Source: Octopus sinensis (Eukaryota). From it: a DNA stretch of 23,548 nt. Below, one piece after another: positions 3,034 through 9,000 of the stretch (the first letter of the stretch is position 1; each line of letters starts with the position of its first letter). Location of the stretch: contig NW_021836561.1 in assembly GCF_006345805.1 (NCBI RefSeq), positions 1 through 23,548 on the forward strand, given 5' to 3'. The position numbers were made by a program.

Positions 3034-6000
3034 ATATATTATATAAATAATAAATATTAGGGAATATATCCCAATTTACAGGGAAAAAAAAATAGATTTA
3101 GGATTAAATCCAATTTTATAGTAAAATATTATAAAATATTATTTGAGACAAAACCACTATTTGCAAAACAAACAAGGAAAGACTTAATCAATACATAAAA
3201 TTTAATAAATAGTCAAAAAAACCGCCACTACAATCGTTCTTGTCTTGATCGACAATCTTCAGGTGGACTTCCAATCTAAAAAATCAAAATTTTAAAATAT
3301 AAAAATAATACTTTTAAATAATTAAAGTATAAATGAAAAAATATAAGTATATAATCCATATATAACCTATATATAATCCATATCGAAAATATAGACTAAT
3401 ACCACAATTCCCTAAAAAAAACCATGATAAAACAAAACTCTTAAAAACATATAACGATAAAATCTCCTTTGCTAAATCTATAACAAACCTATAAAGTAAA
3501 CCCCCTAACCTAAACATTCACACACAATACACACACGTAAACCACAGACTCACGACTTATACACATACCTATACTAACTTATAAACCTCAATATACAACC
3601 AAAACCACTCCCTCCCCACACAGACAAATTAACACATACATCCCAAAACCTAAATAACAACCCATATACACATTCACACACAAAACACACACTCACACGC
3701 AAAACACTCACACACAAAAGATACATATACTCCCTCACATATACGCCTATACATACTCACTAAACTCGACATATACAACAATACTTACACACCCACAAAA
3801 AACATTATATACATTTATGAGCTTTAACTCACCTTAGCATCTCTAACAAACAACTTGCAGTAACCCAATCCCATTCTCTATGCCTACCTACCACTACTAC
3901 ACTATTCCATTCACATTCCAAGCAACGCTAGTCCACCACCCGGTTATTCACGTGGCAAAACGAACACCACTCAAAAATTATGAATGAAACAATGTAAAAA
4001 AATAACCAACACCTAAAATAGACAAAATACCACAAATTACCTAAAAAAACCATGATAAACCAAACTCATAAAAGCATATAACGATAAAAATCCCTTGCTA
4101 AACCCTATAACCAAACTTATATAGCAATCCCCCTAACCTAAACATTCACACACAAAAAACCCACACGGAAACCACAGACCCAAGACTTATACACAAACCT
4201 ATACTAACTTATAAACCTCAATATACACCAAAAACCACTCCCTCCCCACACAGACAAATTAACACATACATCCCAAATCCTAAATAACAAACCCAAATAC
4301 ACATTCACACAACACACCACAAACACACACAAAACACACATACACAACAGATACATATGCTCCCTCACATATACGCATATACATACTCACTAAAACTCGA
4401 TATATACAACAATATTTTACACCCACACTCATACAGATAAATAAATTAATTATACAATTAAAAACTCACAACCAATCTCATATACATAAACACTCTTATG
4501 AAAACAACAATAAATACATCGTAATTAACCAGAATATCAAAAATAACATTATGACATAAGGATAAATCAAATACATACTTACAATTCAGTTACAAATTAT
4601 GAAGTGAAATTAGATTTTATCCGTTAAAAACCAAACAAAATTACGTTACCATGGAAATAACTAATGTAAAAAAAGAATACGCGCCATAGAAAGTAAACGT
4701 CATTCATAGTATGAATGGAGAAATATAATAAATGGAACTAAAAACTATTTCCACGTAGCAAACCAACGCTACTTAAAAAAATTTATTATGAATGGATTCT
4801 TTAAAAACTATCATGAAAATCAATTATATACATTTATGAGCTTTAGCTCACCCTAGCAACTCTAACAAACAACTTACAGTAACCCATACTCAATACCTAC
4901 CTCATTACCACCCTAATCCATTCACAATTCCAAACAACACTAGTCCACCACACGGTTACAATTCCCAACTCTACCCATTCATTCATAATTTCAACGACGT
5001 TCCCTTCAACAACTCTACATATAAGCCTCAACATATACACCGGAGATACACTTACACATCCGTGCGGATGGGTGAGAGTATACATTAAGTGTAGTGATGG
5101 GGCTCCCATTTCTAAACACATTTGTACCTGTGTGGTAGTCTCCATGTGTATATTCACGCAAGGGTATAAATACAGGGGGTACACGCTCACTTCATTTACG
5201 TGTACCCCTCACATGTACATATGCATACAATTTTGGCTCGATATATGCAACAATGTAATCGCGCCCGTATGTGTGAGCATTCACTAGTTGTGCAATTCAC
5301 CCATCTGGGTGTGATTGTGTGTAAACTTATCACTGTGGAGGTCGAGCTTGATACGTATATATTAGTGTGTATTAGGGGTTGTACGTACTAATTATGTTCA
5401 TGTGCTTCACGCACTTGCGTCCATGTATGGAAGAATATATTGGGATTACTATGTAGGTGTAAATAGGGTATGGGGGAGTTTTGTCATTGTATGGTGTGTG
5501 GGTTTCATTTTGATGGTGGTTGGGGATGTATGTGTTTATTTATCCATGGGGGCTGGAGTGGCCGTTTAGGTGCATATGCTGAGGCTCACATGCAAACCCA
5601 TGTACAACGAATGAAGTGGGCACTTATAATTGTTATGGGTGTGTACTTTATTATAAAAGACAATACCCAAATAAAATCTGTCAATTCAACTACAAATAAA
5701 AAACAAAAAACAAAAGGGATCTTAAACATTCACACATACATACAAAACTCAATAAAAACACCACTAAATAACACCCAAAACATATAAATATATCCTCAAA
5801 TACATATAACAAATGCAAATAAAAATACATAATAAAATAAAATAAATAAAAATAAAAATAAAAATAAAAAATCTAATATAAATTATTAAAGTTTTAACGT
5901 ACCATAAACTGCTAAATTAATATACATTAAAAATGAACTAATTAAAACAAGAAATATCAATAAAGACTAACTATAATTAAATCCTAGACAACATAACCAA

Positions 6001-9000
6001 AAATATCATCTAACTAACTAATTTAAACTAAAATAACCTAAAAGGGAACTATTATTGCTATTTATCATGAAACTTATTATATAGTAAAGTAACTTGTGTC
6101 TACATTTTATTTTGCGCTCCTCCCCAGTATTAAGTAATTATCATACTTATAAAATAAAATTTCTTTAAACTCATTAGAGCATAAATAACAACAATTAGCT
6201 CCTATATTATATGATTTAGTTTTACAAATATTTCCCATATTAAACTATAATTAATATTAGTGAATTTAAGACTCCAAATATACTTACTAAGTCCGGTCGG
6301 TTGAGTTGATTAAGTTTTATTTTTTAAAAGAATTCATATGTTGGATTCTTAGTTTTATTTTTGAGGAAGTAGAACCTATATAAACCGCTTTATTGTAATT
6401 ATTATTCTTAAAGTTATTATCATGTAATGTAACTATACATTTATACACTACATCGTTAATATCACAATTATTATTTAATATACAATTAGATTTATCTCTA
6501 ATGTACAATTAATATAAGTCTTATCATTATTAATATTATTATCAAATATTTCTTTTTATAAAAATTATTCAGTTTATATTATTAAATGAAGAATAATGTT
6601 ACCAACATTATTAGTGGTAGAGTAACCAACTCCAAAATTATTAAAAGAGAAAATGTTCCTATATTTACGATTATCTCTAATAAATAGTTCTATAACATCT
6701 AAAATCTCTTTAATAATATTCGTTTTAACTTGATCTCCATAAGGAACTATTAACCAAATTTTATTCTTATTAACTTATTATTATTATCATATTATAAATA
6801 TATTTATAATTCTTTATTTTATTAAAATATTATCAGAATTATATCTATGTACAGCATTTAAGGAATTATTAATATTATTAAATTTATCAATATAATTATT
6901 ATAATAATTATTAAATTTATTTTATTTATATTATTCTTATTTATTATTATTATTATTATCATATATTATTATTATCTTATTTATATTTTTATCATTTTAT
7001 ATTTTTTTATAATATCTATTATTTTTTTTTACCACTAAACGTAAAAAATTATAATTATTATAGAAGTATCTCGAAAATATCATTTAAATCATATCGCTAA
7101 TATTATAAAATTTAATATTCTTATTAAACCTGCCCCTCTAAGGGCCTCATTATAATAATTAGCATGTTTATTAAAATCTCTAATCATAAGAGAGTAATGA
7201 AATACGTTTACTTATATTATTAATCAACGATTTTTTAATAGAAAATGGGTGATTACTATTAACATTTATATATCTAAGGTTCTCATTAAGTTATGAAATG
7301 GTGTGTTTGTTTTACCTGTAATAAGATTAAATTAACATCTAAATAATTAACATTATAATTCTCCTTATATATAGTAATACGTAAACCATATCTTTTAAAG
7401 AAAAACTATATATTTTTCTATATACTTCTAGATTCCTATTAGTACAATTCTTTGTAACTAGTAGAAGATCGCTCTATATAAACCACCCTCTATCTTAAGA
7501 TTTTCTAATGAGTTCAGATAAAGAAAATACTAACTACTAAATCAGTAGCCTGTGCAGAATCTGGTGCTCCCATAGGTATATCAAAACAATCTCTAGTATC
7601 ATTCCTAGCCCATAATTTTTTTTTATATTTATTAGCGATTTCCTAGCCAATTTATTACATTAACTTCTTCCCGTGACATGCCCACTTTATTCATTGCGAA
7701 AATAAGCGCTTTATTAAACACAATTTCATTAATAGAAGAAGAATAATAATTATCTATATCTATTTGAATAAATTTATAACGATTTTTATCTTTATTATTA
7801 AAACCATTTCAATGTATTATATTACTAAACCATAATTTTAAATAATTAAGTTATTTAACTTATCAATATATTTATCTAAAATAAATTTACTTAATTTACT
7901 AGGTCCGATTTACATGGGCAAATTAATCTAACTTTAGGGTCTGAATAAAAATTATCTTTATGGTCTTTAAGAGTAATTCTGGGGTGCAGAGGTACATAAG
8001 GTTCAGTTTTATTATCCAACTCATATTTTAACATTACTACTTTAGAGGCCTTATTAATATTATAAAGAATATCATCTGGAACAATTTTATATTTTTTAAT
8101 TATTTCTTTCCCTAAAAGTTTATCATATATTTAACATCTAATTTATATAAGTTCCTTGTTTTATCAGATTGTACTATAATACTATCCATATTTCTCATAT
8201 CTTTATTTTAATTGCTAATTCCTTAAATATTATTATTTCTATTTGGGTATTTATGGAATTCAATATTTTTACCACCTTCCATATACTATCTTCAAGTAAT
8301 TGTAATTCTTATTAAATGGAGGTTCCTTTCTAGATTTAAATTTAGAGGTATATTATCATTCCTACTATCAATATCATTAATAAATAAAAAATTATAGTAA
8401 AAGCTTTCCATTTAATTCTAGAGAAATAAAATCTTTAACATTATTAACAAGTTTCAAGATAAATTCCTTTCTAGAAGGAATAGGAATATCTTTCAAAGAT
8501 GAATCCCAAAACAGCGGTTCTATCTTACCTGTAAAATCCATAATTTGCGAAATAAGTTATTATTCTTCTATTAATGAAATTGTGTTTAATAAACGCTTAT
8601 TTTCGCAATGAATAAAGTGGGCATGTCACGGGAAGAAGTTAATGTATTAAATGGCTAGGAATCGCTAATTAAATATAAAAATAAATTATGGGCTAGGAAT
8701 GATACTAGAGATGTTTTGATATACCTATGGAGCACCAGATTCTGCACAGGCTACTGATTTAGTAGGTATTTTTCTTTTATCTGACTCCAATTAGAAAATC
8801 TTAAGATAGAGGGTGGTTTATATAGAGACGATCTTCTACTAGTTACAAAGAATTGTACTAATAGGAATCTAGAAGTATATAAGAAAAAACTATATAGTTT
8901 CTCCATTCATACTATGAATGACGTTTACTTTCTATGGCGCGTATTCTTTTTTTACATTAGTTATTTCCATGGTAACGTAATTTTGTTTGGTTTTTTAACG

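What the first reader, a model, noticed from the sequence alone, without database searches (positions are those of the whole stretch)
3036..8553. Inverted copy is a circularly permuted unit 32 nt short of one full lap
The 3' end equals position 10579 and the 5' end equals 10612, so only 10580-10611 of the ~5.55-kb unit is missing. The copy reads straight through the HHR cleavage site. This fits reverse transcription of a circular RNA (HHR-cleaved monomer 10388-15941, 5554 nt, religated) that stalled on meeting its own priming complex. An uncleaved tandem transcript with a chance stop is the alternative.
Basis: partly seen in the sequence, partly recalled or inferred. Interest (0 to 1): 0.72.

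Follow-up and report, generated by a model that had tools for sequence, protein, structure and literature searches.

The report
Penelope-like retrotransposon with inverted copy
This is a typical compound insertion of a Penelope-like retrotransposon (a partial tandem plus a head-to-head inverted copy) in a TA microsatellite; the inverted copy really is about one unit long, but that does not show that its template was a circular RNA.

Summary
Window 3036-8553 is an inverted copy of the 5.55-kb unit. It runs from unit position 10612 through the repeat junction to 10579, so 10580-10611 is missing, and it crosses the hammerhead site uncut.

The element is a Penelope-like element (PLE) of the Hydra clade. 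It has a TERT-like RT, a C-terminal GIY-YIG nuclease, a minimal dimer-type hammerhead upstream of the ORF, and a (TA)n target. A partial tandem with a head-to-head inverted copy is the published standard PLE insertion architecture. A PLE protein has been shown in vitro to nick and extend both target strands, using ribozyme-uncleaved RNA.

The circular-RNA template idea was published in 2014. Nothing here requires it. The neighbouring + arm runs 1.29 units straight through the point where a one-lap stall would fall. A second PLE in the window has an inverted arm of only 129 nt.

The near-one-unit length has about a 1% chance under random truncation (my arithmetic). It stays unexplained. The start and the stop lie in one predicted stem-loop. 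No census of other copies was possible.

The parts
2941..3035 (.). (TA)n microsatellite, left flank of the compound insertion (also the right flank of a second PLE)
   Evidence: Read directly; TA-rich repeat families (D7, D11).
3036..8553 (-). Inverted arm: PLE copy running from unit 10612 (at 8553) through the repeat junction to unit 10579 (at 3036), 5518 nt
3036..3123 (-). 88-nt 3' extension (= unit 10492-10579). It is present on the inverted arm and absent from the right end of the + arm. It is the counterpart of the PLE 'tail' between two RT start sites.
   Evidence: The tail concept is from PMC3846280 and PMC11167929.
3225..3266 (-). Hammerhead copy in the inverted arm, crossed uncut (site 3229|3228). 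One A of the GAAA core is missing.
6040..8541 (-). RT/GIY-YIG ORF of the inverted arm, broken into many frame pieces (ends approximate)
8552..8556 (.). Junction 1 between the inverted arm and the + fragment: 2-4 nt of microhomology, or a 3-nt filler
   Evidence: read base by base.
8557..8902 (+). 350-nt + oriented fragment equal to unit 11426-11778 (RT region). Read as the 5' part of the + arm after a 2.67-kb template jump or deletion.
   Evidence: 8552-8902 = 11422-11778, 0 mismatches, 8 gap openings.
8898..8902 (.). Junction 2: 5-nt microhomology TTTCT between unit 11778 and unit 14447
8893..16046 (+). + arm: 1.29 units. Upstream pseudo-LTR 8893-10491 = downstream pseudo-LTR 14447-16046, with the full ORF between them.
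   Evidence: 97.95% over 1613 columns, 6 mismatches, 21 gap openings; D17, D18.
10351..10391 (+). Hammerhead copy in the upstream pseudo-LTR (site 10387|10388), with a 2-nt deletion in helix II
10453..10658 (+). Predicted structured RNA domain. A 19-bp long-range stem encloses both RT start sites (10491, 10579), the inverted arm's 5' end (10612) and the ATG. The inner hairpin is 10578-10629.
   Evidence: -64.3 kcal/mol, z -4.57, 0 of 200 shuffles as good; -10.8 kcal/mol, z -2.30, 4 of 200.
10580..10611 (+). The 32 nt that the inverted arm lacks. It lies in the 5' strand and loop of the inner hairpin.
10624..13126 (+). PLE ORF (N-terminal domain, RT, Asn-rich insert at about 12090-12420, CxCX5C linker, GIY-YIG nuclease) in at least 8 frame pieces
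15903..15945 (+). The one descriptor-complete minimal type I hammerhead (core CUGAAGA, GAAA, GUA; cleavage after 15941)
   Evidence: 1 hit in the window; 4 of 200 shuffles give any hit; the dimer fold forms an 8-bp intermolecular helix III.
16047..16085 (.). (TA)n microsatellite, right flank

Best explanation
The 13-kb block 3036-16046 is one compound insertion of an endonuclease-bearing Penelope-like element (Hydra clade) into a (TA)n microsatellite.

Proposed mechanism; every step is inferred from the anatomy and from published PLE biochemistry, and none was observed here:
1. The element's GIY-YIG nuclease nicks both strands of the AT-rich target.
2. Each 3'-OH primes reverse transcription internally on element RNA. 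The start sites are AU-rich and lie just upstream of the ORF: unit 10491 for the + arm and unit 10579 for the inverted arm.
3. The templates are linear, longer than the stretch copied, and not cut at the hammerhead.
4. The two cDNAs grow towards each other and are joined in the middle by template switching or microhomology annealing. This leaves junction 1, the 350-nt fragment and the TTTCT junction.

The result is the standard PLE layout: inverted copy, upstream pseudo-LTR, ORF, downstream pseudo-LTR.

The inverted arm's 5' end at 10612 is where the enzyme left its template, inside the stem-loop where this arm's synthesis also began. I take the near-one-unit length to be either coincidence or a pause at that structured, possibly protein-bound, initiation domain in the upstream unit of a tandem transcript. 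It is not evidence for a circle.
For: Identity as a PLE:
- The ORF pieces tile a family of about 700-aa proteins (20 hits with E <= 0.001 among 2610 candidates, best E 5e-41).
- A high-confidence model of homologue P0004 (pLDDT 85.6, pTM 0.81) matches telomerase RT best (3du5_A, E 2e-8). DRT, retron, R2 and group II intron RTs follow.
- The GIY-YIG domain gets Pfam E 8e-4.
- The Hydra-clade motifs listed in PMC8557442 section 11 are present. These are DKT, CxCX5C, no Cys pair between GIY and YIG, CxxC near E, CxH, and a (TA)n target.

Layout:
- The RNA 3' ends of both arms face outward onto (TA)n, and the 5' ends meet head to head. Priming from both nicked strands predicts exactly this.
- PMC8557442 describes partial tandems with an adjacent inverted 5'-truncated copy and a microsatellite bias.
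- PMC11167929 shows that the PAc protein cleaves and extends both strands of AT-rich DNA, initiates internally near the ORF start, and mainly uses unprocessed RNA.
- PMC3846280 describes two direct plus one inverted pseudo-LTR with an optional 31-bp tail.

Other support:
- Both junctions show short microhomology.
- The three pseudo-LTR copies differ in a star-like way: private differences are 28, 25 and 14 columns of 1622. This fits one event.
- The + arm reads 1.29 units through 10523 and through 10579-10612.
- Relatives in 10 fetched loci carry 16 hammerhead-descriptor hits in 81,396 nt, against 0.04 expected. Inverted arms occur in 3 of the 6 loci of 3.7 kb or more.
Against: - Under uniform 5' truncation, a stop within about 32 nt of a full lap has a chance of roughly 1% (my arithmetic, 64/5554, not a tool result). 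Pure coincidence is therefore uncomfortable.
- The structural explanation for the stop rests on predicted folds of AU-rich RNA (z -4.57 for the domain, only -2.30 for the hairpin). There is no covariation support.
- No RNA data exist here.
- No target-site duplication can be defined inside a microsatellite, so a single event is inferred, not shown.
- Dual-strand priming was shown for a Penelope/Poseidon element of a lizard, not for the Hydra clade.
- Pfam finds no RT domain in 0 of 6 window ORF pieces and in 0 of 8 homologues. A profile search of PDB sequences found 0 hits. The RT assignment therefore rests on motifs and on the fold search.
Confidence: 0.55

Rival explanations
1. Unit-length linear RNA with a fixed 5' end. 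The template of the inverted arm began at or next to unit 10612. That end could be a transcription start in the pseudo-LTR or an RNA end made at an initiation or 'tail' site. The arm would then be a full-length run-off cDNA. 'One unit minus 32 nt' would simply be the distance from that RNA 5' end to the RT start site 10579 in the next repeat.
For: - The 32-nt gap falls in the size class of the PLE 'tail': 30-40 bp in PMC8557442 and 31 bp in PMC3846280.
- In PAc the tail is the stretch between two RT start sites, and RNA-seq read ends fall on those sites (PMC11167929).
- Published PLE pseudo-LTRs carry the transcription start (PMC8557442; PMC3846280).
- Read by eye, 10609-10615 fits an initiator-like word and a TATA-like word lies at 10570-10576. 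This is not a tool result.
- Junction 1 may contain 3 untemplated nt, as expected at a template end.
- In related locus L001 both head-to-head arms appear to end at the same inner position.
Against: - The + arm reads straight through 10612, so at least some templates extend further 5'.
- TATA-like words are everywhere in 75% A+T sequence, and the spacing (about 41 nt) is longer than usual.
- No RNA data exist here.
- The L001 arms are diverged (88%) and may belong to another repeat.
Confidence: 0.2
2. One reading: a hammerhead-cut, religated 5554-nt circular RNA was the template. Synthesis went once round and stopped 32 nt short of its own priming complex.
For: - The copy is permuted, crosses the hammerhead site, and ends 32 nt short of its start.
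- A descriptor-complete hammerhead lies in the repeat, and its dimer fold is favourable: -21.4 kcal/mol against twice -6.5.
- Circular RNA as a more-than-unit template for PLEs was proposed in PMC4209133.
- Small hammerhead retrozymes do make circles in animals (PMC7229834).
Against: - The sequence is equally expected from an uncut tandem transcript.
- The adjacent + arm made 1.29 laps with no stop one lap after its start.
- Only 1 of 3 hammerhead copies here is intact.
- PLE minimal hammerheads cleave poorly in vitro (PMC4209133).
- In PAc, ribozyme-dead RNA inserts equally well and no reads end at the cut site (PMC11167929).
- The second PLE in the window has an inverted arm of 129 nt.
- Among the 25 papers listed by searches, I found none showing a full-length PLE circle (listings only).
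Confidence: 0.12
3. The inverted arm is not a retrotransposition product. It would be a DNA-level fold-back duplication or a long-read assembly artefact.
For: - Differences between copies are dominated by 1-nt indels. One search gives 20 mismatches against 117 gap openings. In one search, 75 of 95 gap events are 1 nt. This looks like unpolished long-read sequence.
- PLE structures are known to trouble assemblies (PMC8557442).
Against: - The arms are not mirror images. The inner ends differ (10612 against 11422) and the outer ends differ (10579 against 10491).
- The left arm holds a junction (16046 joined to 10492-10579) that is absent from the right end of the + arm.
- The flanks beyond the (TA)n differ (and direct reading).
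Confidence: 0.05

Closest known systems
Hydra clade of C-terminal-endonuclease Penelope-like elements (Craig et al. 2021, PMC8557442, section 11 read whole)
   Same: DKT in place of DKG; an RW[KR]-type N-terminal motif; a CxCX5C linker; no CCHH pair inside GIY-YIG; CxxC and CxH near the C-terminus; a hammerhead between ORF copies; insertion into (TA)n; an aquatic invertebrate host (the best named protein hit is from an octopus).
   Different: The unit is 5.55 kb, whereas the published families are 'generally short (<3 kb)'. About 2.8 kb of non-coding sequence with an internal 628-nt duplication lies between the ORF stop and the hammerhead. The ORF has an Asn-rich insert. The window copy reads KWK where the motif is RWK.
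PAc (Poseidon of Anolis carolinensis) in vitro system (PMC11167929; passages and section 3 part 2)
   Same: AT-rich target; both strands usable as primers, which predicts head-to-head arms; internal RT initiation near the pseudo-LTR/ORF junction inside a stem-loop; two alternative start sites defining a 'tail'; hammerhead not needed for insertion.
   Different: It belongs to a different clade. In PAc the start sites lie 111-118 nt inside the ORF and 30-40 nt apart. Here the two observed 3' ends lie 45 and 133 nt upstream of the ATG and 88 nt apart. Nothing was tested biochemically here.
Adineta vaga Pen2a_Av layout (PMC3846280, passages)
   Same: Two direct pseudo-LTRs and one inverted one make up the insert. 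An optional short tail lies at the 3' end of one inverted repeat. Asn-rich inserts occur in the ORF. Junctions show microhomology.
   Different: There the inverted part is only a pseudo-LTR of about 180 bp. Here it is a whole unit.
Hammerhead retrozymes and their circular RNAs (PMC7229834, PMC7761336, PMC4918200 by listing; bioRxiv 10.64898/2026.07.22.740005)
   Same: Type I hammerhead in each repeat; tandem genomic copies; a proposed cDNA synthesis on circles that gives tandem copies.
   Different: Retrozymes are 150-1000 nt, non-coding, and their circles have been observed. This unit is 5.55 kb, coding, and no circle has been observed.
Twin priming of LINE-1
   Same: Both nicked target strands prime cDNA synthesis, which gives an inversion with microhomology at the internal join.
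   Different: In L1 the two pieces come from one RNA and together make up less than one element. Here each arm is a unit or more.

Membership tests
Penelope-like elements (EN+) | Reverse transcriptase related to telomerase RT | tested here: met
   The AF2 model of homologue P0004 (36-39% identical to the window pieces; pLDDT 85.6) has TERT chains as its best PDB matches (E 2e-8 to 1e-6). The YRDD and other RT motifs align in the window ORF. Against this: Pfam RVT_1 was not found and the PDB sequence profile search gave 0 hits.
Penelope-like elements (EN+) | GIY-YIG endonuclease fused to the RT in one ORF | tested here: met
   Pfam GIY-YIG E 8e-4, 20.1 bits, below the 22.6-bit cut-off. The GIY, YIG, R, H and E columns align with the homologues. 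Atlas neighbour clusters carry GIY-YIG.
Penelope-like elements (EN+) | Pseudo-LTRs formed by a partial tandem | tested here: met
   8893-10491 = 14447-16046, in register with a 5554-nt period.
Penelope-like elements (EN+) | Inverted copy adjacent to the upstream pseudo-LTR, head to head | tested here: met
   3036-8553 lies next to 8893 and on, with a 350-nt fragment between. The same layout appears at small scale in the second PLE, 1112-2940.
Penelope-like elements (EN+) | Hammerhead ribozyme motif in the pseudo-LTR | tested here: inconclusive
   My own descriptor gives 1 complete motif of the 3 copies, and 4 of 200 shuffles give any hit. Relatives give 16 hits in 81 kb against 0.04 expected. 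Rfam finds no hammerhead in the window or in 7 of the 10 related loci searched. Cleavage was not tested.
Penelope-like elements (EN+) | Optional 30-40 bp tail at one end | tested here: inconclusive
   The two arms end 88 nt apart (10491 against 10579). The 32-nt gap 10580-10611 is in the published size range, but it was not shown to be a tail.
Hydra clade of PLEs | DKT, CxCX5C linker, no CCHH, CxxC and CxH, RWK, (TA)n target | tested here: met
   against the text of PMC8557442 section 11. RWK reads KWK in the window and RWK in 6 of the 11 homologues. No tree was built, and the paper's supplementary alignments were not seen.
Hydra clade of PLEs | Short element (<3 kb) | tested here: not met
   The unit is 5554 nt. 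Related locus L008 has a 2.2-kb unit. The paper says 'generally', so this is not a strict criterion.
Retrozyme-type circular-RNA retroelement | Monomer excised by two hammerheads and present as circular RNA | not testable with these tools
   No RNA data. Two hammerhead sites 5554 nt apart exist, but only one of them is intact.
Retrozyme-type circular-RNA retroelement | Small, non-coding, non-autonomous | tested here: not met
   5.55-kb unit with its own RT/EN ORF.
LTR retrotransposon (considered because of the 1.6-kb direct repeats) | gag/protease/integrase genes, LTRs as complete terminal repeats | tested here: not met
   The only Pfam hit among the 6 ORF pieces is GIY-YIG. The repeats are in register with a tandem period, and the inverted arm continues across the repeat junction. 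PBS and PPT were not searched.

The most novel reading that the evidence does not exclude
The almost exact one-unit length of the inverted arm is a footprint of the template's form. The template would be either a 5.55-kb hammerhead-processed circular RNA of an autonomous Penelope-like element, copied once round, or a unit-length RNA whose ends are made at the RT initiation sites. Either would be the first genomic trace of how PLEs make their templates and their tandem and inverted structures.
Probability: 0.15. Interest if true: 0.7.

Novelty: new member of a known kind. Interest (0 to 1): 0.3.

Why it matters
How Penelope-like elements build their tandem and inverted insertions, and what their hammerheads are for, is still open. 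The cited reviews call the ribozyme's role 'a mystery'.

This locus is a clean, young-looking example. It has both arms, both outer ends, two microhomology joins and two different RT start sites. Its 5.55-kb unit is long enough for long-read RNA and DNA data to tell a circle, a unit-length linear RNA and a tandem transcript apart.

As it stands, it is an ordinary instance of a described architecture. It belongs to an apparently undescribed long family of the Hydra clade, in what is probably a cephalopod genome.

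Tried and rejected
- Rfam searches: whole window at gathering scores, 8500-16300 at E <= 10, and 15870-15970 at E <= 10. No hammerhead was found. The related loci gave only hairpin look-alikes of miRNA families (7 of 10 loci, because of the size limit).
- tRNA scan of the window: 0 genes.
- Pfam on 6 ORF pieces: GIY-YIG only. Pfam on 4 and then 8 homologues: nothing relevant.
- PDB sequence profile search: 0 hits.
- LTR-retrotransposon reading: rejected (see the membership table).
- Fold-back duplication or misassembly: rejected on the asymmetry of the arms.
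- Homology between the flanks at 930-1115 and 16060-16420, which could have been a large target duplication: only a TA-run match, scoring no better than the best of 200 shuffles.
- Using the related loci to test for a length peak: only L001 and L008 have arms not cut by contig ends. They belong to other families and are rearranged, so no conclusion is possible.
- Lunse et al. 2017 on dimeric PLE hammerheads is not held. I saw it only as a reference entry.
Other copies of this family therefore stayed unchecked.

Full report
**1. The observation**

A self-comparison of the window shows three related blocks.
- Block 1: 8893-10491 equals 14447-16046 in direct orientation (97.95% over 1613 columns, 6 mismatches, 21 gap openings). 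This gives a period of 5554 nt. The + strand therefore carries 1.29 units, 8893-16046.
- Block 2: 3126-8562 is the reverse complement of 16046-10602 (97.1% over 5511 columns, 20 mismatches, 117 gap openings). 3036-4727 is the reverse complement of 10579-8893. The inverted copy thus crosses the repeat junction.
- Block 3: 8552-8902 equals 11422-11778 in direct orientation (0 mismatches, 8 gap openings).

Reading the ends base by base gives these boundaries.
- The inverted copy's outer end is 3036 = unit 10579, and its inner end is 8553 = unit 10612.
- The + arm's right end is at 16046 = unit 10491.
- The BLAST extension to 8562/10602 is slop in AT-rich sequence.

The copy is 5518 nt against a 5523-nt reference path. 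The one caveat is that the last about 10 nt at 3036 are TA-like and abut (TA)n, so the gap could be up to about 42 nt.

**2. What the element is**

The + strand ORF (10624 to about 13126) is split into at least 8 frame pieces.
- These pieces tile a family of about 700-aa proteins. One search gave 20 hits with E <= 0.001 among 2610 candidates. The best has E 5e-41 with 39% identity over 95% of the 263-aa query. The best named hit is an Octopus bimaculoides model, 65% identical over 39% of the query.
- Pfam recognises only a sub-threshold GIY-YIG domain (E 8e-4, 20.1 bits against a 22.6-bit cut-off). It finds nothing relevant in 8 homologues. A profile search of PDB sequences found nothing.
- An AlphaFold model of homologue P0004, built with 11 aligned sequences, is confident (pLDDT 85.6, pTM 0.81). 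Its best PDB matches are telomerase reverse transcriptases (3du5_A at E 2e-8, then Candida TERTs). DRT9, DRT2, retron, R2 and group II intron RTs follow.
- Atlas neighbours carry HTH_animal, DUF8422, GIY-YIG and, in one cluster, RVT_1.

A TERT-like RT fused to a C-terminal GIY-YIG nuclease defines the endonuclease-bearing Penelope-like elements (PMC8557442, passages).

The motif set matches that paper's description of its Hydra clade, which I read whole.
- DKT replaces DKG.
- An RW[KR] motif is present. It reads KWK in the window and RWK in 6 of the 11 homologues.
- The linker is CxCX5C.
- No cysteine pair lies between GIY and YIG.
- CxxC sits next to the conserved E, and a C-terminal CxH is present.
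- The target is (TA)n.

The element differs in size. Its unit is 5.55 kb, against the 'generally <3 kb' of published Hydra families. The extra length comes from an Asn-rich insert in the ORF and about 2.8 kb of non-coding sequence.

**3. The hammerhead**

Rfam reports none in three searches of the window.

A descriptor I wrote requires CUGANGA, helix II, GAAA, a short helix III, UH, and a helix I of at least 4 bp.
- It finds exactly one site on either strand, 15907-15941. Only 4 of 200 block shuffles give any hit.
- A relaxed version finds the same single site.

Alignment of the three copies shows that the copy at 10351-10391 lacks 2 nt in helix II, and the inverted copy lacks one A of GAAA.

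Helix III is the self-complementary 8-mer typical of dimer-type PLE hammerheads. A two-strand fold forms it (-21.4 kcal/mol against -6.5 for one strand). The published description of such minimal, dimer-acting, poorly cleaving motifs is in PMC4209133 (passages).

Differences between copies are mostly 1-nt indels: 75 of 95 gap events, of which 38 of 95 fall in or beside homopolymers. The three pseudo-LTR copies differ in a star-like way. The two 'defective' ribozymes and the ORF frameshifts may therefore be assembly errors. I cannot tell.

Relatives support the motif. In 10 loci fetched with the family profile, the relaxed descriptor gives 16 hits in 81,396 nt, against 0.04 in shuffles. Several hits lie 90-190 nt downstream of the ORF. 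Rfam misses them too (7 of 10 loci searched).

**4. Anatomy of the insertion**

From left to right the block reads as follows.
1. (TA)n, 2941-3035.
2. The inverted arm, with its RNA 3' end outward.
3. Junction 1, with 2-4 nt of microhomology or a 3-nt filler.
4. A 350-nt + fragment of the RT region.
5. Junction 2, with the 5-nt microhomology TTTCT.
6. The + arm, with its RNA 3' end outward.
7. (TA)n, 16047-16085.

Both outer ends fall on TA-like words of the element, at unit 10491 and at unit 10579. These lie 133 and 45 nt upstream of the ATG and 88 nt apart.

This is the published PLE layout.
[quoted passage not shown] - PMC3846280 describes two direct plus one inverted pseudo-LTR with a 31-bp tail.
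- PMC11167929 gives a mechanism for one PLE. The protein cleaves and extends both strands of AT-rich DNA and starts reverse transcription internally, in a stem-loop near the ORF start. Its two start sites bound the tail. Ribozyme-dead templates insert as well as wild type, and no RNA-seq reads end at the ribozyme site.

Priming from both nicked strands predicts head-to-head arms with their 3' ends outward, which is what is seen here. The inner joins look like template switches or microhomology annealing between the two cDNAs.

**5. Circle or not**

The inverted arm joins unit 16046 to 10492-10579. The right end of the resident + arm lacks that junction. The inverted arm is therefore an independent read of a template that spans the repeat junction and is uncut, or religated, at the hammerhead. 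A tandem transcript and a circle both predict this.

The idea that religated PLE circles serve as more-than-unit templates was published in 2014 (PMC4209133). For small retrozymes it is the accepted model (PMC7229834; PMC7761336; the bioRxiv preprint 10.64898/2026.07.22.740005).

Three observations count against a stall one lap after priming.
- The + arm starts at 10491 and runs 7154 nt. It passes 10523 and 10579-10612 without a break.
- A second, different Hydra-type PLE in this window (1112-2940) has an inverted arm of only 129 nt.
- In the fetched relatives, inverted arms occur in 3 of the 6 loci of 3.7 kb or more (L001, L004, L008). Where they are not cut by contig ends, they are not of unit length, although these elements belong to other families and are rearranged.

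One point favours a non-random stop. Under uniform truncation, a stop within 32 nt of a full lap has a chance of about 1% (my arithmetic).

**6. What might set the stop**

The stretch 10440-10720 folds far better than shuffles (-64.3 kcal/mol, z -4.57, 0 of 200 as good).
- A 19-bp stem (10453-10471 with 10640-10658) encloses both RT start sites, position 10612 and the ATG.
- The inner hairpin 10578-10629 is weaker (-10.8 kcal/mol, z -2.30, 4 of 200). Its 5' base sits at the start site 10579, and 10612 lies in its 3' strand.

Start and stop thus lie in one predicted stem-loop, the counterpart of the PAc initiation stem-loop. If protein sits on that domain in every unit of a tandem RNA, the enzyme would stop about one unit after starting, with no circle needed.

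Alternatively, an RNA 5' end at 10611-10612 would make the arm a run-off copy of 'one unit minus a tail'. That end could be a transcription start, since an initiator-like word is seen by eye. It could also be an end made at an initiation site, as the PAc read ends suggest.

These readings make different predictions for a census of copies.

**7. Verdict**

The object is an ordinary compound insertion of a Penelope-like element of the Hydra clade, from an apparently undescribed long family. I am about 95% confident of that identity.

For the template of the inverted arm, my estimates are:
- linear transcript longer than the copy: about 0.55;
- unit-length RNA with a fixed 5' end: about 0.2;
- circle: about 0.12;
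- rearrangement or misassembly: about 0.05.

Papers: I saw passages, and the named sections, of PMC8557442, PMC11167929, PMC3846280, PMC4209133, PMC7229834 and PMC7761336, and the abstract and passages of the preprint. Their supplementary figures were not seen and may bear on the clade assignment and on the tail. These include the Hydra alignments (S7), the PAc figures S1-S2, and the hammerhead lists. Twin priming of L1 is recalled from memory.

Noticed in passing
window 1112-2940: A second, different Hydra-type Penelope-like element. Its ORF is 5'-truncated (thumb to GIY-YIG, 1154-2530) and has its own Asn-rich stretch. It is flanked by 129-nt inverted arms (1112-1240 and 2812-2940, 98% identical). 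Its right end abuts the same (TA)n that the large insertion abuts. BLASTP against homologue P0004 gives E 2e-16 and 4e-07.
   Followed up: partly
window 12090-12420 (and 6860-7100 on the minus strand): An Asn-rich, extremely AT-rich insert in the PLE ORF, between the thumb region and the WFNPPY-type motif. It is absent from the 11 aligned homologues. It resembles the N-rich inserts described in Adineta vaga PLEs (PMC3846280).
   Followed up: partly
window 3036-16046: Differences between the three copies are dominated by 1-nt indels (20 mismatches against 117 gap openings; 75 of 95 gap events are 1 nt). This looks like unpolished long-read assembly rather than divergence. The ORF frameshifts and the two damaged hammerheads may therefore not be real.
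   Followed up: partly
window 9196-9606 / 9822-10234, 14747-15158 / 15373-15785, 3387-3797 / 4015-4427: An internal duplication of about 628 nt (about 89% identical) inside the G/T-rich non-coding part of each pseudo-LTR copy.
   Followed up: no
window 17187-18932: Five copies of a 75-200-nt unit (64-88% identical), several of them followed by long (AAT)n arrays. This may be a SINE-like or satellite repeat. ARAGORN finds no tRNA in the window.
   Followed up: no
window 19839-20552: Minisatellite with a 20-nt period (35 copies) and an 85-nt higher-order period.
   Followed up: no
window 171-557, 20836-22560, 22872-23015: Long (AC)n, CT-rich and (TA)n microsatellite tracts. The window is very rich in simple repeats.
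   Followed up: no
L001-L010: Contigs filed under bacterial MAGs encode animal-type PLE proteins (47-68% identical to P0004), with hammerhead motifs, (TA)n ends and palindromic junctions. They are evidently eukaryote-derived sequence binned with bacteria.
   Followed up: partly
L001 12097-12313, L006 9214-9375, L008 13388-13589: Near-perfect palindromes of 160-220 nt at inverted junctions of related PLEs. Rfam scores them as miRNA-precursor look-alikes below the gathering cut-offs.
   Followed up: no
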